The notes under the pieces: generated by a model
Told to the model about the DNA's origin: nothing
Seen by the model: the letters and a program-made list of their open reading frames with translations, nothing else
The model's database searches: none
Source of the DNA: Cenarchaeum sp.
Lineage (GTDB): Archaea; Thermoproteota; Nitrososphaeria; Nitrososphaerales; Nitrosopumilaceae
Length of the DNA: 64,000 nt
Assembly (NCBI GenBank): GCA_965242695.1
Contig: CBDESU010000002.1
Span: forward strand, 416,001 to 480,000
Reading direction: 5' to 3'
Part shown: positions 9,052-12,992 of the stretch, in pieces
Layout of the letters: each line of letters opens with the position of its first letter
Numbering within the stretch: the first letter of the stretch is position 1
Program-made: the position numbers and the translations under genes

Positions 9052-9330
9052 ATGGCGCAGGTAGAAAAGCCGATAAGGGTCACTGTCATAGTCGACGGAA
9101 TAGACCGCGAAGAGGTGCTCGACGGCGGGTCGACCGTAGGGCAGGTCATCTCCGAGCTGCTCCCGGACGACGAAAAGTCCAAGGCGGGCAACTACGACCT
9201 GTCCACCAAGGACGGCCCCCCGCTGGATCCCGCATCCGTCCTAGAGAACGACGACGTCCACGACGGCGACGTTCTTACCGTTACAAAAAAGGACGGCGGC
9301 GGCGGCGGCAGTGCGTGCAATAGGCCATGA
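9052..9330 (+). CDS. bilA: ubiquitin-like beta-grasp protein (BilA-like) with C-terminal extension
   Basis: IRVTVIVDG...STVGQVI...YDLSTKDGPPLDP...VHDGDVLTVTKKDGGGGG followed by SACNRP. Confidence 0.8.
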   Translation: MAQVEKPIRVTVIVDGIDREEVLDGGSTVGQVISELLPDDEKSKAGNYDLSTKDGPPLDPASVLENDDVHDGDVLTVTKKDGGGGGSACNRP

Positions 9331-9794
9331 CCATTGTGGATCCTTCCCTGTCCAAGATGTGGTTCGACCGCGCGACGGCCCCGCTCGTAGAGCGCCCCGG
9401 CACGTACGCGGGCGCCGGGATCAGGGTAGTCGAGCGCTCGTTCCCCGTCCTCATCGTGGGGCTGTCCTACAAGTCGGCGGGCAGGGAGTTCCTGCTGCAC
9501 GTGCATGCCGACGACTACAACTACCTGCCGCCCAGGGGGTGGTGGGTCGACGGGAATGGATCCCCGCTGCCGGCGGACAGGGCGCCGCGCGGCGCCGGGT
9601 TCCATGCAGACGTCAACCCGTACAAGGAGGACAGGGGGTGGCTGTGCTATCCCGGGTGGCGCGAGTACCACGACCACCAGTCGCACCAAAACGACCCCTG
9701 GGGACCACTTCGGGGCAAGAAAGAGTACGGGATCTCGGCCAGGATCATGCAGCTTTGGCATGATCTCAACCATGCGGGGGTGGAGGTACCATAG
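9327..9794 (+). CDS. bilB: prokaryotic E2 conjugating enzyme (type II BilB-like)
   Basis: DDYNYLPP and WLCYPGWREYHDHQSHQNDPW (putative catalytic Cys); ATGA overlap with the Ubl gene. Confidence 0.8.
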   Translation: MTIVDPSLSKMWFDRATAPLVERPGTYAGAGIRVVERSFPVLIVGLSYKSAGREFLLHVHADDYNYLPPRGWWVDGNGSPLPADRAPRGAGFHADVNPYKEDRGWLCYPGWREYHDHQSHQNDPWGPLRGKKEYGISARIMQLWHDLNHAGVEVP

Positions 9795-9802
9795 CCAGGA
9801 CG

Positions 9803-10339
9803 GTGTGGGTCGTCCCCAGAAAGGTGGTCGACGAGACGGTCGGCGCGCTGTCCAGCATGGAGTCCGAGGTCTTTGTGCTGTGGACCGCGCCCAAGGAACC
9901 GGCCGGTTCCCGCAAGAGCCGCTCCCGAGCAGGACGCATCCTGGAACGCCTCAGGGCCGCGCTCCCCGTGCCTGGCCGCCGCAGTATCGCCATAAGCAGG
10001 GCGATCGTCCCCGTACAGGACACCCACGCGGGCGCCGACGGCGCGTACGTCCACATAGCCGGCAGCGAGCTGCGCAGGATCGGGTTCGACAACTACGAGA
10101 GGGGCGAGCGCAACGCCGTCCAGATACACACCCACCCGTCGTCGAGCACCCGCATGTCCGAGCTGGACCGCGAGTGGGAGGTGGTCACGCACGTCGGGGC
10201 CCTGAGCATCATCGTCCCCCACTACTGCGACGGCGGCCTCGAGTCGTTCAGGAAGGCTAGCGTGTACGAGCGCGAGGCGGGCGGGCGGTGGAGGCTCTGG
10301 GGCGCCGGCGAGTTCAAGAGGAGGCTGAGGATAGCGTGA
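9803..10339 (+). CDS. bilC: JAB/MPN+ metallopeptidase (BilC-like deubiquitinase)
   Basis: JAMM motif: E...QIHTHP...SELD; ALSIIVP. Confidence 0.88.
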   Translation: MWVVPRKVVDETVGALSSMESEVFVLWTAPKEPAGSRKSRSRAGRILERLRAALPVPGRRSIAISRAIVPVQDTHAGADGAYVHIAGSELRRIGFDNYERGERNAVQIHTHPSSSTRMSELDREWEVVTHVGALSIIVPHYCDGGLESFRKASVYEREAGGRWRLWGAGEFKRRLRIA

Positions 10340-11835
10340 GCGAGGCGCTCGAAAAGAACCGGCGCGCCCTCTTGCGGGCCGGCGGGGACGGCGCTAGTGC
10401 CGAGCTGATCGGCACGGCGAGGATCGGCGTCTGGGCGGGAGGGGAGGCGCGGCCGCAGCAGGCCGTGCTGCTCGCCGAGGCGCTAGGCGACCTGCTCGGC
10501 AGGTTCTGGCGCAACATAGACGCGGGGGGACGGGGCGGCGCGACAGTGGCAGACGCCGCGGCGGCATCGTCTAGGGCGTGCGGCGCATGTTCGCAGGTGC
10601 GGCGCACATGGCATCCCCCGTACGACTTTGCGATCGGCATAGGCGCGGACGCGCCGCCCGGCTCGGCGGCGGACGGCGTTACTGTGGGGGCCGACGGCTG
10701 GACGGTCGGCGCCGGATCGGGCGCGGCCATGGGAGGCGGCGCCAACCCCTTCGGCCCCCTCGTGGCGGCCGCGCTGGCGTCGGCAGAGGCCGTAAAGTCC
10801 GTGTTCTCGATCGGCGAGGCCCGCGGTGCGAGGCGGCTTCCACCTTCGTATGAATGGGATGCGCTGCACGGCAGGGCATGGGTGGAGCAGGAGGAAGAAG
10901 GCCTCAACCTGGGGGAGGTTCACGTGTTCGGGGTCGGCGCCGTGACCCACGCCATGCTCTGGGCCCTAGCAAGGTGGCCATGGGGCGTCGCGGGCACGCT
11001 GCACCTTGTCGACCCCGACGCGTACGATGCGGGAAACCCGCAGCGCTACATGGGCACCGCGGCGGAGGACATCGGGTTGTCAAAGGCGGTAGCAACAGCA
11101 GACAGGCTTCGGCTCGCCTGCCCGGCCCTGGACGTGCTGGCCCACGAGACGGATATGAACAGCTACTTTGGGGATACGGGGGACTTTTACGTACAAACCG
11201 CGGTATGCGGGCTGGACTCGGCGGAGGCGAGACGGCAGCTGGGCCTCAAGCTACCCCGTACAATAGTCAACATGTGGACGTCCGGGTTCCACGCCGGCGC
11301 ATCGGCGTTCTCGTTCGATGATGGCTGGCCCTGCATACACTGCGCCTATCCAGAGCCGGACGGAACAGAGCCGAGCGCGGTCAAGCTCATCCAGGACGCG
11401 ACCGGGCTGGAGGCGAGGCGGATCCGCGAGCTGCTCGGGTCAGGCAGGTGCATTGACGAGAGGGATGCCGAGGCCATCGCCGCCGCCACAGGCATGGCCG
11501 CCGGCGAGGTATCCTTAAAGCCGATCAGGGGCGTACGGGCGGACATGTGCGCCACCGGCAGGATCGCGGCCCCCGGCGGACGGGAGGGGGAGGAGGCCGA
11601 CGTGCCGCTCGCGTTTGCCAGTGCGATGGCAGGCGCGGCAGGGTTTGCCGAGCTGCTGCACGTAACGCGGGGCGTGCGGCGCGAGCCGGGGCAGTTTCAG
11701 ACGTCGGTCCTGACGTACCCGACGCGCCACTCGTGGAAGCGGCGGGGCAGGAGTGCGAGCTGCCACCTCTGCACCGATTCCGTCCGGCGGCTAGCCCGCG
11801 ACAAGTATGCGGGCGCGGAGGCCATGGCGCAATGA
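10336..11835 (+). CDS. bilD: E1/ThiF activating enzyme with N-terminal inactive adenylation-like domain (BilD-like)
   Basis: GVGAV, VDPD...NPQRY, GLDSAEARR, CIHC and CHLC zinc motifs, DMCATG candidate catalytic Cys; GTGA overlap with the JAB stop. Confidence 0.88.
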   Translation: MSEALEKNRRALLRAGGDGASAELIGTARIGVWAGGEARPQQAVLLAEALGDLLGRFWRNIDAGGRGGATVADAAAASSRACGACSQVRRTWHPPYDFAIGIGADAPPGSAADGVTVGADGWTVGAGSGAAMGGGANPFGPLVAAALASAEAVKSVFSIGEARGARRLPPSYEWDALHGRAWVEQEEEGLNLGEVHVFGVGAVTHAMLWALARWPWGVAGTLHLVDPDAYDAGNPQRYMGTAAEDIGLSKAVATADRLRLACPALDVLAHETDMNSYFGDTGDFYVQTAVCGLDSAEARRQLGLKLPRTIVNMWTSGFHAGASAFSFDDGWPCIHCAYPEPDGTEPSAVKLIQDATGLEARRIRELLGSGRCIDERDAEAIAAATGMAAGEVSLKPIRGVRADMCATGRIAAPGGREGEEADVPLAFASAMAGAAGFAELLHVTRGVRREPGQFQTSVLTYPTRHSWKRRGRSASCHLCTDSVRRLARDKYAGAEAMAQ

Positions 11836-12992
11836 ATCAGCCCAGCGGCGGCGCAGGCGCGCGCCCGCACAGGAATAGCCGCGGAAATGGACAGGGCGGT
11901 ATGAACCGCATTGCGTTGTTTCTGGGAGCTGGCGCGTCCGTCCCGTACGGCATGCCTACAACGAAGAAGCTTCGGGAAAAACTGGGCCAAAACTTTCCCC
12001 GCCAGGATCTTGTAGACAGTGCTCGATTTCCCGACGCCGAGCATATACTACAGGCACTTGATGACGAGATTCGTTTTGCAAATACATCGGCAGGGACACA
12101 TCACCGCGGAAATAACACACCATTTGGCGATCTGATCAAACAGTCGGGGCGCGCAAGAAACTACCTAGAAAGTCTCGTGCGATCGTCCTATGTTTGGAAT
12201 TCGGCCGCGGACTCAACCGCCGTGGATGTCTTAAGCGCGCTCTTTGGGCTTGTCAAGTCGGACAACGGAGACGTCACCGTATTCACGACAAACTATGATG
12301 GAGCCATCGAAAGGTACTGCAGGCACGCCGAGGTAGCCACCGAATGCATAGACGGCTTTGTGCCGTGCCGAAAAAGCAAGGAGTTTGTCTGGTCGGGCGA
12401 CTTTACTCCCAGCGACGAGTCCGCCCGTAGCAGGGTGTTCCTCTACAAGCTGCATGGGTCTATGAACTGGCAACAGAGTATGGAAGACGGCACAAAAGTG
12501 ACGGTTAGAAAGCCGGACAAGAGTACGCCGATGTACAGATCTGACGATGCGTACATACGGCCCACGTTACGCATCAAAGACGAGGATATGCGAGAAGAGC
12601 CGTTTGCCACACTCCTAGGCAGGTTCGACAAGATCCCCGAGTTGTTCGATGTCTGCATCGCGATTGGCTGCTCGTTTAGGGACAAGCACATACACGACAA
12701 GTTTGTCGAGTTCATTAAAAGCGGCAAGACCTTGATTGCAGTAGGCCCGGAAGCAGCGTCCGACTTTTCTACCGCATTGGGAAAACCTCCTGACTCTGCC
12801 ACAAAAAGCTCTTGGGAGAAGATGCAACTGTGCAACATGCCCTACAAGCAGGATAGGGCAGACGGGTTCTATGCCGTGCATATGAGACTAGGTGAAGACA
12901 ACACGGAATCCGTCATAAACGCAATAAGACCGATACTTGAGAAATCGGCCAGCCCCAATCGCATAGGCTACATTGCAGAAGCAAATACGTGA
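11832..12992 (+). CDS. SIR2-like (SIR2_2) putative NADase
   Basis: LFLGAGAS...P, FTTNYD, YKLHGS, IGCSFRD; ATG 11832 overlaps the E1 stop (alternative ATG 11901). Confidence 0.9.
   Translation: MNQPSGGAGARPHRNSRGNGQGGMNRIALFLGAGASVPYGMPTTKKLREKLGQNFPRQDLVDSARFPDAEHILQALDDEIRFANTSAGTHHRGNNTPFGDLIKQSGRARNYLESLVRSSYVWNSAADSTAVDVLSALFGLVKSDNGDVTVFTTNYDGAIERYCRHAEVATECIDGFVPCRKSKEFVWSGDFTPSDESARSRVFLYKLHGSMNWQQSMEDGTKVTVRKPDKSTPMYRSDDAYIRPTLRIKDEDMREEPFATLLGRFDKIPELFDVCIAIGCSFRDKHIHDKFVEFIKSGKTLIAVGPEAASDFSTALGKPPDSATKSSWEKMQLCNMPYKQDRADGFYAVHMRLGEDNTESVINAIRPILEKSASPNRIGYIAEANT

What the first reader, a model, noticed from the sequence alone, without database searches (positions are those of the whole stretch)
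9052..12992. Archaeal Bil-type ubiquitination operon with a translationally coupled SIR2 gene
Seen: one TATA box, then Ubl, E2, JAB and E1 in bilABCD order with ATGA/GTGA overlaps at two of three junctions. A SIR2 ORF follows whose in-frame ATG overlaps the E1 stop; it looks less GC-rich than the Bil genes. Established: Bil systems are four-gene bacterial anti-phage systems that conjugate Ubl to phage proteins, and SIR2 defence domains deplete NAD+. Inference: a five-gene variant in an apparent archaeon in which Ubl conjugation gates or backs up an NADase.
Basis: partly seen in the sequence, partly recalled or inferred. Interest (0 to 1): 0.82.

Follow-up and report, generated by a model that had tools for sequence, protein, structure and literature searches.

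The report
Archaeal Bil tagging operon with SIR2
A sponge-associated ammonia-oxidiser-type archaeon carries a complete bacterial-style ubiquitin-like tagging operon (Type II Bil) with an NAD-destroying SIR2-type gene kept directly behind it in related archaea, which hints at what this poorly understood tagging system may control.

Summary
At 9052-12992 (+) lie Ubl, E2, JAB and E1 genes in bilABCD order, with ATGA and GTGA overlaps at two of three junctions. A TTATAAA box sits 23-29 nt before the first ATG. A SIR2_2 gene follows whose in-frame ATG overlaps the E1 stop; its core GC is 0.52 against 0.62-0.70 for the Bil genes.

The genome is archaeal: its rRNAs match the archaeal models, and a same-family genome is titled Thaumarchaeota.

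The four enzymes are a Type II Bil (CEHH/6C) system. Their best solved relatives are BilD, BilB and BilC of Ensifer aridi. The CEHH motif, the E1 catalytic and zinc cysteines and the JAMM motif are all kept.

SIR2 linkage:
- It recurs in a same-genus genome (E1 63% identical), where only the five-gene block is shared and the flanks differ.
- Contigs of three sponge or other metagenome studies carry both the E1 and the SIR2 gene.
- It was not found in the 23 distinct other Type II Bil loci that have enough downstream sequence.

The SIR2 has an intact NADase motif set and resembles the SIR2 of SIR2-HerA systems.

No paper found in my searches describes a Bil-SIR2 pairing. The scan had already noted Type II Bil in a Lokiarchaeon, without SIR2. 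Co-transcription and functional coupling remain inferred, because no RNA data were available. I rate it a new variant of a known kind, interest 0.62.

The parts
9023..9029 (+). TATA-like box (TTATAAA) of the operon promoter; the spacing implies a leaderless or near-leaderless mRNA starting near ATG 9052
   Evidence: Read. AT-rich 8-mers are rare here. The same-genus locus has TTTACAT at a similar distance before its Ubl ATG. Promoter function is inferred, not measured.
9052..9330 (+). bilA-like Ubl: 92 aa, a single beta-grasp domain, conserved TKK[D/N]GGGG motif followed by a 6-residue tail (SACNRP) that is presumably trimmed
   Evidence: Pfam YukD 5.5e-8. The AF2 model (pLDDT 74.9) is a beta-grasp whose rank-2 PDB match is BilA 8tyx_A, TM 0.69/0.77. 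The motif is conserved in 27 aligned homologs. PADLOC BilA gave no hit; the phmmer match to BilA 8u38 is only E=0.36.
9327..9794 (+). bilB-like E2 of the CEHH type: 155 aa, with C107, E113, H115, H120
   Evidence: Pfam Metal_CEHH 2.9e-10. PADLOC BilB 1.6e-4. The only PDB hit is BilB 8tyz_C, 1.4e-7, with all four CEHH residues aligned (residue roles from the Chambers preprint). C107, H115 and H120 are invariant in 31 homologs.
9803..10339 (+). bilC-like JAB/JAMM peptidase: 178 aa, with HTHx7SxxD
   Evidence: PADLOC BilC 4.7e-9. The only PDB hit is BilC 8tyx_B, 7.4e-10, with the H-x-H...S..D stretch aligned. No Pfam hit. The upstream catalytic Glu could not be placed by alignment.
10336..11835 (+). 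bilD-like two-domain E1: 499 aa, catalytic C405, zinc cysteines C333/C336/C476/C479
   Evidence: Best PDB hit is BilD 8tyz_A, 1e-33 over residues 108-482. C405 aligns with C417, and the CxxC pairs align with the zinc site (residue roles). PADLOC BilD 1e-11. Pfam ThiF 7.1e-13. These cysteines are invariant in 22 homologs.
11832..11900 (+). Possible 23-codon N-terminal extension of SIR2, whose ATG overlaps the E1 stop (ATGA)
   Evidence: Its GC (0.696) matches the Bil genes, not the SIR2 core. In 4 of 6 closest homologs there is no Met at the core start, so an upstream start is needed there. The extension is the least conserved segment, 28-43% identity.
11901..12992 (+). SIR2_2-family NADase-type protein: 363-aa core with GAGAS, FTTNYD and KLHGS motifs
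   Evidence: Pfam SIR2_2 7.4e-10. PADLOC SIR2 7.6e-22. N131, D133 and S187 are invariant and H185 nearly so in 88 homologs. The AF2 model has pLDDT 92.8. Best folds are the SIR2 of SIR2-HerA, TM 0.60-0.67. The family profile hits the same PDB proteins at E 7.6e-20 to 6.9e-16.

Best explanation
This is a five-gene defence cassette. It consists of a Type II BilABCD ubiquitin-like conjugation module plus a SIR2-family NADase gene, carried by a clade of sponge-associated Thaumarchaeota.

Shown:
- The four Bil proteins keep every catalytic residue tested.
- SIR2 keeps its NAD-binding and catalytic motifs.
- The five genes are the unit that two archaeal species share in otherwise unrelated surroundings.

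Inferred:
- All five genes are read from one leaderless promoter at about 9023-9052.
- JAB trims the Ubl tail after GGGGG. E1 adenylates the Ubl and thioesters it on C405, then hands it to E2 C107, which attaches it to lysines without an E3.
- SIR2 is the NAD+-depleting effector arm of the same system. Its activity would be tied to the Ubl pathway, most simply by Ubl conjugation to SIR2 or to a protein that restrains it. The precedent is Cap2/Cap3 conjugation tuning the signalling enzymes of CBASS and some Thoeris systems.
For: Type II Bil identity:
- Solved-structure matches and residue alignments, Pfam Metal_CEHH, PADLOC BilB/C/D, gene order and overlaps, Ubl fold.

Cassette unity:
- blastn of window 5000-18000 against the same-genus locus L012 matches only 9078-11810 and 12248-12768. 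The flanks are unrelated; L012's flanks hold other ORFs.
- Co-linear contigs in other studies: X6 record 16 (12,307 bp) and X7 record 25 (6,308 bp) lie on the E1 part and, at unchanged spacing, on SIR2 from 12240 on. They do not align over the junction itself. X10 record 4 (1,670 bp) runs unbroken across 11667-12992.
- Sixteen contig lengths are shared between E1-cluster members and SIR2 clusters. Five are contigs of at most 7.7 kb: 4011, 5658, 6267, 7070, 7670.
- In the E1 tree the window sits in a 37-row clade (SH-aLRT 100). Same-contig SIR2 evidence is present in all five of its sub-clades.
- Twelve of 16 such SIR2s fall in one 24-row clade (SH-aLRT 99), whose sub-clades mirror the E1 sub-clades (with labels added).
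- No TATA-like 8-mer occurs in the 2.7 kb before SIR2.

Partner dependence is plausible:
- The nearest solved relatives are SIR2 proteins solved in complex with HerA. That these need HerA to become active is recalled from the literature, not checked here.
- A paralog in the same window sits in a SIR2-TIR-8xMP array.
- Bil-linked SIR2 clades share a C-terminal S/T-P..(I/L/V/M)-G-x-I tail. It is missing in 4 of 4 non-Bil paralogs of this genome.
Against: - There is no expression data: no RNA run was listed.
- In the same-genus genome E1 and SIR2 are about 307 nt apart, and that SIR2 is split by a -1 shift in an A6 run.
- SIR2 was not found next to the other Type II Bil loci. Of 47 loci, 25 have a near-full E1 and at least 1,500 nt downstream, and only the same-genus one has it. 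So Bil does not need SIR2.
- The genome has five other ORFs of this SIR2 family in other contexts. SIR2 paralogs are dense here (three in 64 kb), so co-occurrence on long contigs can be chance.
- Four same-contig SIR2s lie in other SIR2 clades, and P0149 lacks the tail motif.
- SIR2's GC is 0.17 below that of E1.
- The tail residues 351-360 are modelled as ordered, pLDDT 95. That does not fit a free conjugation tail.
- The tail-motif correlation is confounded by phylogeny.
Confidence: 0.5

Rival explanations
1. There are two independent defence systems side by side. One is a self-sufficient four-gene Type II Bil system. The other is an autonomous SIR2 NADase gene that landed behind it in a defence island and has been co-inherited, perhaps co-transcribed, only because it is tightly linked. 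No biochemical link exists between Ubl conjugation and SIR2.
For: - The window is a defence island: KwaB-like, Schlafen/AlbA_2, two HEPN, GmrSD, TIR-STAND, Avs4-like, and SIR2-TIR-8xMP.
- Six ORFs of this SIR2 family occur in the genome, in varied contexts.
- The other Type II Bil loci lack it.
- GC drops exactly at the core start, 11901.
- There is a 307-nt spacer in G004.
- Partner SIR2s come from more than one SIR2 clade.
Against: - The five-gene block moves as one unit between unrelated flanks.
- Linkage signs appear in all five sub-clades of a clade reaching down to 55% E1 identity.
- Start and stop overlap in the closest sub-clade, and an upstream start is obligatory in 4 of 6 homologs.
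- SIR2 has no promoter-like element of its own.
- The nearest solved relatives were solved in complex with a partner, HerA.
Confidence: 0.35
2. SIR2 is itself a substrate handled like a Ubl. JAB would cut its C-terminal tail after the conserved Gly, and E1/E2 would attach SIR2 through that Gly to targets, as Cap2/Cap3 do with CD-NTases and some Thoeris TIR proteins.
For: - The conserved ...(I/L/V/M)-G-x-I tail plus 5-8 residues occurs in Bil-linked SIR2 clades and is absent or mutated (G to E) in 4 of 4 non-Bil paralogs of this genome.
- The Chambers preprint reports up to nine residues after the conserved Gly of Type II BilA.
- The Thoeris preprint reports C-terminal tails on TIR proteins associated with Cap2/Cap3.
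Against: - The tail region 351-360 is modelled with pLDDT 95, so it is ordered and not a free tail.
- The sequence around the Gly is unlike the Ubl's KKDGGGGG.
- A dedicated Ubl is present.
- The motif looks ancestral in the SIR2 family tree, so the correlation may be purely phylogenetic.
- One same-contig SIR2 (P0100) has Asp in place of Gly.
Confidence: 0.07
3. The locus is not a defence system. The Bil module would be a stress-response or housekeeping protein-modification pathway, and SIR2 would act as a protein deacylase or ADP-ribosyltransferase on its targets.
For: The Gong preprint states that the targets and consequences of Type II Bil conjugation are unknown and may concern stress response.
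Against: - The locus sits in a defence island.
- It is very patchy in distribution: 3 of 401 family genomes and 1 of 401 phylum genomes, counts that include the window's own genome.
- SIR2 belongs to the SIR2_2 / SIR2-HerA type rather than to the sirtuin deacylases. TM to classical sirtuins is 0.28-0.41, against 0.60-0.67 for SIR2-HerA.
Confidence: 0.05

Closest known systems
Type II BilABCD (CEHH/6C) operons, founding example Ensifer aridi TW10 (PDB 8TYX, 8TYZ, 8TZ0; Chambers et al. preprint 10.1101/2023.09.26.559546, passages read)
   Same: - Same gene order: Ubl-E2-JAB-E1.
- The E2 carries all four CEHH residues.
- The E1 has a catalytic Cys aligned to C417 and four zinc cysteines.
- JAMM motif present.
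- Single beta-grasp Ubl with residues after the conserved Gly.
- Located in a defence island.
   Different: - The host is an archaeon; the preprint's 162 operons are described as mostly Rhizobiaceae.
- Similarity to the E. aridi proteins is distant (E1 E-value 1e-33).
- A SIR2 gene is attached as a conserved fifth gene. The words SIR2 and effector do not occur in the preprint's main text. Its supplementary table could not be read.
Type I Bil (Collimonas sp. OK412; Hör et al. preprint 10.1101/2023.09.04.556158, abstract and word search only)
   Same: A four-gene Ubl/E2/JAB/E1 anti-phage system. It gives the only known mode of action for a Bil system: the Ubl is conjugated to a phage tail protein.
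   Different: Type I Ubls have two beta-grasp domains, and Type I E2s lack the E and first H of the CEHH motif. The PADLOC Bil models hit only weakly here. No SIR2.
SIR2-HerA (Nezha) systems, PDB 8SUB, 8SUW, 8UAE, 8J4U, 8W9L, 8YHX
   Same: The SIR2 protein is the nearest solved relative in fold (TM 0.60-0.67) and in profile (E 7.6e-20 to 6.9e-16). It has a similar length, and the FTTNYD and LYK-HGS motifs align.
   Different: No HerA gene is adjacent; the neighbour is an E1. Identity is only 16-20%.
Type II CBASS, and Thoeris variants with Cap2/Cap3
   Same: A ubiquitin-type E1/E2 plus a JAB peptidase act as a module attached to an effector-based defence system. This is the working analogy for how conjugation could tune an immune enzyme (passages; introduction).
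   Different: Those systems have a fused E1-E2 and no free Ubl, and they conjugate the signalling enzyme itself. Here there are separate E1 and E2, a dedicated Ubl, and no cyclase or TIR in the operon.

Membership tests
Type II BilABCD (CEHH/6C) | Gene order Ubl - E2 - JAB DUB - E1 on one strand | tested here: met
   The same order is seen in 9 named bacterial relatives by tblastn.
Type II BilABCD (CEHH/6C) | E2 with the CEHH motif (Cys138, Glu144, His146, His151 in E. aridi BilB) | tested here: met
   C107, E113, H115 and H120 align residue for residue in the phmmer alignment to 8tyz_C. Pfam Metal_CEHH 2.9e-10.
Type II BilABCD (CEHH/6C) | Multidomain E1 with a catalytic Cys in a mobile CYS insertion and a Cys4 zinc site | tested here: met
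   C405 aligns with C417. C333/C336 and C476/C479 align with the zinc cysteines, and all are invariant in 22 homologs. The N-terminal 107 residues (inactive adenylation domain) were not aligned to BilD by phmmer. The PADLOC BilD profile covers residues 86-319 of the 515-aa ORF.
Type II BilABCD (CEHH/6C) | JAB/JAMM deubiquitinase with an intact metal site | tested here: met
   H-T-H-x7-S-x2-D aligns to BilC 8tyx_B. The upstream catalytic Glu was not placed.
Type II BilABCD (CEHH/6C) | Ubl with a beta-grasp fold and a conserved C-terminal Gly followed by up to nine residues | tested here: met
   The AF2 model matches BilA 8tyx_A at rank 2. The GGGGG + SACNRP tail is seen, and the TKK[D/N]GGGG motif is conserved. 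By sequence alone the match is inconclusive (BilA E=0.36; no PADLOC BilA hit).
Type II BilABCD (CEHH/6C) | Ubl-target conjugation activity and anti-virus protection | not testable with these tools
   Needs biochemistry or genetics.
Defence SIR2 NADases (SIR2_2, PF13289) | Rossmann GAGxS NAD-binding motif, catalytic Asn (TTNYD) and His (LHGS) | tested here: met
   N131, D133 and S187 are invariant; G9-S13 and H185 are conserved in at least 90% of 88 homologs. Above the Pfam cut-off. That these residues are the catalytic ones is recalled from ThsA/DSR2 work, not checked in a paper here.
SIR2-HerA (Nezha) | An adjacent HerA-type ATPase partner | tested here: not met
   The upstream neighbour is the E1. 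The next called gene downstream (14202-14780) is a small membrane-like protein with no HerA hit.
Thoeris ThsA | SIR2 fused to a SLOG (or Macro) sensor domain, with a TIR gene in the operon | tested here: not met
   No SLOG or Macro hit. TM to ThsA is 0.36-0.41. There is no TIR gene in this operon. A paralog elsewhere in the window does sit beside a TIR gene.
Type I Bil | Ubl with two beta-grasp domains; E2 lacking the E/H of CEHH | tested here: not met
   The Ubl is 92 aa with one beta-grasp. The E2 has the full CEHH motif.

The most novel reading that the evidence does not exclude
In this archaeal clade a free ubiquitin-like protein cascade (Ubl, E1, E2, JAB) has been wired to an NAD+-destroying SIR2 enzyme. 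Ubl attachment or removal would be the switch that arms or restrains an abortive-infection effector. That would be the first case of ubiquitin-type tagging directly controlling an immune effector enzyme in a prokaryote with a dedicated Ubl. It would also give Type II Bil, whose targets are unknown, a concrete output.
Probability: 0.3. Interest if true: 0.85.

Novelty: new variant of a known kind. Interest (0 to 1): 0.62.

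Why it matters
The targets and biological effect of Type II Bil conjugation are stated to be unknown (Gong et al. preprint, passage read). A lineage in which the operon has kept an enzyme with a simple, assayable output (NAD+ loss) directly behind the E1 offers a way to ask what the Ubl cascade acts on. It also extends a system described from bacteria to ammonia-oxidiser-type archaea living in sponges. A census preprint reports the ISG15-like system in only one archaeal taxon. If SIR2 turns out to be independent, the locus is still a clean archaeal example of Type II Bil, with every catalytic residue tested kept.

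Tried and rejected
The decisive count of what lies directly after E1 in those contigs could therefore not be made. I used weaker substitutes: matching contig lengths, laid contigs and whole-genome searches.

2. RNA evidence: no RNA holder was listed. Nothing can be said on expression or co-transcription from data.

3. Complex prediction with Ubl + E2 + SIR2 (SIR2 as partner) returned 'no answer', score 0.00 against a mark of 0.32. This is evidence neither way.

4. Haloarchaeon idea: my first guess, from the acidic Ubl and high GC. I dropped it after the kinship table showed a family of mostly 1-2 Mb genomes that includes a MAG titled Thaumarchaeota.

5. SIR2 in other Type II Bil loci: tblastn and an HMM built from the window's SIR2 plus 114 homologs found none outside the same-genus locus. 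The HMM covers this SIR2_2 sub-family only, so a very different SIR2 could be missed.

6. Sigma-70 promoter and intrinsic-terminator scans gave nothing relevant; they do not suit archaea. No T-run of 5 or more lies on the + strand in 8800-13400, so no terminator could be named.

7. Region 12993-14201: no Pfam hit and no Rfam hit.

8. Pfam gave nothing for the recurrent fifth genes of bacterial loci.

9. Literature: searches, and word searches inside seven papers, found no Bil-SIR2 pairing. Supplementary tables of the Chambers and Gong preprints (operon catalogues) are closed and might list accessory genes.

10. The count '10 of 11 Bil-linked SIR2s in one clade' printed was revised after to 12 of 16, read off the same tree. 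P0149 was not in the tree.

Full report
**What is in the sequence**

On the + strand between 9052 and 12992 lie five tightly packed ORFs.

- A 92-aa protein (9052-9330) ends KKDGGGGG-SACNRP. Its TGA stop is embedded in the ATG of the next gene (ATGA at 9327-9330).
- A 155-aa protein (9327-9794) is followed, after 8 nt, by a 178-aa protein starting at GTG 9803.
- That protein's TGA stop overlaps a GTG at 10336, which opens a 499-aa protein ending at 11835. The closest homologs are 498-502 aa. This fits the 10336 start better than the longer ORF from 10288 that the public gene call uses (P0200, 515 aa).
- The E1 stop is in turn embedded in an ATG (ATGA at 11832-11835). That ATG is in frame with a SIR2 ORF whose conserved core begins at ATG 11901 and ends at 12992.
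- The only AT-rich elements upstream are CTAAAAATG/CTTATAAAG at 9013-9030. This puts TTATAAA 23-29 nt before ATG 9052.
- Between 9284 and 11988 there is no 8-mer with 7 or more A/T.
- GC content is 0.616, 0.656, 0.687 and 0.701 for the four Bil genes. It is 0.696 for the 69-nt stretch 11832-11900 and 0.524 for the SIR2 core.

**Whose genome**

The window is C2:416001-480000 of a two-contig, 3.89-Mb genome of 67-68% GC.

- Its rRNA locus is best matched by the archaeal SSU (1450 bits) and archaeal LSU models under clan competition.
- A genome placed in the same family by the kinship table (G301) is the record titled 'MAG: Thaumarchaeota archaeon'.
- Logan contigs of runs labelled 'sponge metagenome' cover the locus at 80-99% identity.

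The host is thus an archaeon of the Thaumarchaeota (Nitrososphaerota), apparently sponge-associated. It is not a haloarchaeon, as I first guessed.

**What the first four genes are**

- E1: its best solved relative is BilD of Ensifer aridi (8tyz_A, E=1e-33). The next hits are NEDD8 E1 subunits at 1e-4. Query C405 sits on BilD C417, and the two CxxC pairs sit on the zinc cysteines. The roles of these residues were read in the Chambers preprint.
- E2: it hits only BilB (8tyz_C, 1.4e-7). C107, E113, H115 and H120 lie exactly on the C138/E144/H146/H151 'CEHH' residues. Pfam calls the same stretch Metal_CEHH (2.9e-10).
- JAB: it hits only BilC (8tyx_B, 7.4e-10), with H-x-H-x7-S-x2-D aligned.
- Ubl: it passes Pfam YukD. 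Its AF2 model (pLDDT 74.9) is a beta-grasp whose second-best PDB match is BilA. Sequence-only matches to BilA are not significant (no PADLOC BilA hit).

According to the Chambers preprint, the Ubl-CEHH/E2-DUB-E1 order defines CEHH/6C operons, which they renamed Type II BilABCD. They also report that Type II BilA carries up to nine residues after the conserved Gly. All defining features I could test are met, so I file the four genes as a Type II Bil system, distant from the founding example.

**Relatives of the Bil module**

- A search of 5.8 billion proteins gave 78 E1 relatives. Thirty-five clusters are 55-92% identical and come from ENA/Logan assemblies. The rest are 37-49% identical and include records named Desulfosporosinus and Ralstonia.
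- Named genomes with the same four genes in the same order include Geobacter, Roseateles, Propionivibrio, Ralstonia (a plasmid), Ramlibacter and a deltaproteobacterial MAG. A Methylobacter MAG matched E2, JAB and E1 in that order, but not the Ubl.
- Among species representatives the module is rare in the host's lineage. It is in 3 of 401 genomes of the family (G000, G004, G301) and 1 of 401 of the phylum sample (G000 itself), at E<=1e-30.
- In a maximum-likelihood tree of 87 E1 rows, the window, P0001-P0035 and G004 form a 37-row clade with support 100 on a long branch. The nearest outside rows are P0036/P0037, P0039, the Thaumarchaeota MAG L013 and P0045, then a Geobacter/Desulfosporosinus/Myxococcota group, then betaproteobacteria.

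The tree is unrooted, so the direction of transfer is not shown. The rarity in archaea and the breadth in bacteria make acquisition from bacteria the simpler reading (inference).

**Is SIR2 linked to Bil elsewhere?**

Direct evidence:

1. The same-genus genome G004 (E1 63% identical) has Ubl, E2, JAB, E1 and SIR2 in the same order. blastn between window 5000-18000 and that locus matches only 9078-11810 and 12248-12768. The five-gene block is therefore the shared unit and the flanks are unrelated.
2. Contigs of three other studies laid on the window carry both genes.
   - X6 record 16 (12,307 bp) covers 8965-11821 and, at unchanged spacing, 12240-12474 and 12594-12969.
   - X7 record 25 (6,308 bp) covers 10915-11812 and, at unchanged spacing, 12240-12491 and 12594-12975.
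   - X10 record 4 (1,670 bp) runs unbroken over 11667-12992 with 157 differences.
   - The first two records do not align over the junction itself.

Indirect evidence:

- Sixteen contig lengths are shared between members of E1 clusters and SIR2 clusters.
- Five of these are contigs of 4.0-7.7 kb. On such short contigs the two genes must be near each other, because the Bil genes alone take 2.8 kb.
- These signs fall in all five sub-clades of the 37-row E1 clade.
- I looked inside only 15 of the 35 clusters.
- Matches on long contigs (21-41 kb) could be chance, because this SIR2 family is dense in these islands: three ORFs in this 64-kb window.

Evidence against a general Bil-SIR2 link:

- Of 47 loci fetched with the E1 alignment, 25 have a near-full E1 and at least 1,500 nt downstream. 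That is 24 distinct loci, since L013 and L029 are the same contig.
- Only the same-genus locus holds a SIR2-family ORF.
- The Thaumarchaeota MAG outside the clade has minus-strand genes after E1.

The pairing is therefore a property of one clade, not of Type II Bil at large.

**Co-divergence**

- In a 67-row SIR2 tree, 12 of the 16 SIR2s with same-contig or direct Bil evidence fall in one 24-row clade (support 99). Its sub-clades parallel the E1 sub-clades (labels extended).
- Four (P0122, P0116, P0110, P0123) lie in three other clades. This is either replacement by paralogs or chance co-occurrence.
- SIR2 evolves faster than E1. On the contig pair taken to be the same from its length (16,626 bp), E1 is 92% identical to the window's and SIR2 is 66-68%.
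- The nucleotide similarity of close strains breaks off at about 11812-11821 and resumes at 12240. The N-terminal third of SIR2 is thus a divergence hot spot.

**Where does SIR2 start, and is it coupled?**

- Homologs of the closest sub-clade are called at 383-387 aa. In 4 of those 6 (P0081-P0084) there is no Met at the position of 11901, so an upstream start is needed there.
- X6 and X7 keep exactly the window's spacing between the E1 end and SIR2.
- The extension is, however, the least conserved segment (28-43% identity outside the nearest homolog), and it has the GC of the Bil genes.
- More distant homologs (360-366 aa) start at the equivalent of 11901.
- G004 has about 307 nt of 74% GC spacer between E1 and SIR2.

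Start-stop overlap is therefore plausible for the closest sub-clade only, and it is not a family trait. I found no promoter-like AT-rich element before SIR2 in either genome, which favours read-through transcription. This is an inference from consensus, not a measurement.

**What the SIR2 is**

- It passes Pfam SIR2_2 and many PADLOC SIR2 models.
- GAGAS, FTTNYD and KLHGS are invariant or nearly so in 88 homologs.
- The AF2 model is confident (pLDDT 92.8, pTM 0.91).
- Its best structural matches are the SIR2 subunits of E. coli SIR2-HerA and related entries (TM 0.60-0.67). ThsA and classical sirtuins score 0.28-0.41.
- The family profile hits the same proteins at 7.6e-20 to 6.9e-16, with the two catalytic motifs aligned.
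- It has no HerA neighbour, no SLOG domain and no TIR gene in the operon. It is therefore not a member of SIR2-HerA or of Thoeris.

That SIR2-HerA SIR2 depends on its partner for activity is recalled from the literature, not checked here. It makes partner-dependence of this SIR2 plausible, no more.

**Context**

- The window is a defence island. It holds a KwaB-like protein, a Schlafen/AlbA_2 protein, two HEPN proteins, GmrSD, a 1,669-aa TIR-STAND protein and a 1,712-aa Avs4-like protein.
- It also holds a second member of this SIR2 family (56719-57876, minus strand), followed by ThsB-type TIR and 8xMP membrane genes.
- Another paralog elsewhere lies between a 1,249-aa SF1 helicase and an AAA_13 protein.

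The family is thus used in several gene contexts. This can be read either as a portable effector or as a portable stand-alone gene.

**An unexpected correlate**

- SIR2s of the clades with Bil evidence end in S/T-P-x-x-(I/L/V/M)-G-(S/F/P/L/Y)-I plus 5-8 residues.
- The four other full-length paralogs of this genome lack the motif; one has Glu for the Gly.
- So does P0149, a same-contig candidate on a 21-kb contig.
- This recalls the Gly-plus-tail of BilA and the tails of Cap2/Cap3 clients.
- Against that reading: the residues are modelled as ordered (pLDDT 95 for 351-360); the motif looks ancestral in the tree; and P0100 has Asp at the Gly position.

I keep it as a lead with low odds.

**How it most likely works**

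Shown:
- An intact Type II Bil enzyme set.
- An intact SIR2 motif set.
- A five-gene block conserved between two species and co-linear in contigs from other samples.

Inferred:
- One promoter serves all five genes.
- JAB trims the Ubl; E1 and E2 conjugate it without an E3.
- SIR2 is the NAD+-depleting arm, tied to the Ubl pathway.

I give about 0.5 to functional coupling of some kind, 0.35 to mere neighbourhood, and the remainder to the two minor rivals and to readings not listed.

**Novelty**

My six literature searches and seven in-paper word searches found no Bil-SIR2 pairing. The operon catalogues in supplements could not be read. A census preprint reports the ISG15-like system in a single archaeal taxon. 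This scan had already noted a Type II Bil cassette in a Lokiarchaeon, without SIR2 (e1-5615731, not re-tested here). I therefore rate the finding a new variant of a known kind. Its value is that it may give the functionally unexplained Type II Bil system a measurable output.

Noticed in passing
window 54400-57876 (- strand): A second member of the same SIR2 family (56719-57876, Pfam SIR2_2 2.1e-10) is followed by a ThsB-type TIR gene (55755-56231) and an 8xMP membrane-protein gene (55224-55745). This is a Thoeris-like array whose SIR2 has no SLOG domain hit. A first-reader note on the same spot exists (e1-6365156).
   Followed up: partly
window 13014-13091 and 13087-13890: Directly after the SIR2 stop lie two repeated elements. 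One is a 78-bp stretch with 5 other copies (81-82% identity). The other is an ~800-bp stretch with 3 other copies (81-84%) elsewhere in the genome. Neither has a Pfam or Rfam match. They may mark the downstream edge of the cassette.
   Followed up: partly
L012 (G004:C2) 7905-7925: The same-genus SIR2 is split into two ORFs by a -1 shift inside a run of six A. The near-identical protein cluster P0087 (11 members) is intact at 363 aa. This is either a sequencing error or a real, possibly reversible, frameshift.
   Followed up: partly
L017:9488-10351, L032:2393-3289, L054:7487-8482; L021:8012-8752, L037:5146-5916, L039:7575-8315: Several bacterial Type II Bil loci carry a recurrent fifth gene right after E1. 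There are two unrelated families of about 290-330 aa and 246-256 aa, three loci each, 41-79% identical within a family, and neither has a Pfam match. A variable gene behind the E1 may be more common in Type II Bil than the four-gene description suggests.
   Followed up: partly
window 1-64000: The whole window reads as a defence island with GC mostly below the genome mean of 0.67. It holds KwaB-like (1080-2561), Schlafen/AlbA_2 (4982-6289), HEPN (15757-16881, 19648-20646), GmrSD (35692-36834), TIR-STAND (37226-42235), Avs4-like (44587-49725), a TGT-like protein (51106-52755) and two DUF5131 paralogs (26765-27556, 28535-29395).
   Followed up: partly
window 12225-12992: The protein collection's gene call for this SIR2 (P0080) is only 256 aa. 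It starts at an internal GTG and lacks the NAD-binding GAGAS motif. With that call the gene looks about 390 nt away from the E1 and its tie to the operon is hidden.
   Followed up: yes
window 12940-12992 and homologs P0079-P0129: A conserved C-terminal tail, S/T-P-x-x-(I/L/V/M)-G-x-I plus 5-8 residues, occurs in the SIR2 clades that have Bil evidence. It is absent from the four other full-length paralogs of this genome. It is modelled as ordered.
   Followed up: partly
G000:C2:372000-384000 (L060): Another paralog of the SIR2 family (388 aa, P0146) lies between a 1,249-aa SF1/UvrD-type helicase and a 752-aa AAA_13 protein on the same strand. This may be another SIR2-containing defence operon.
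   Followed up: no
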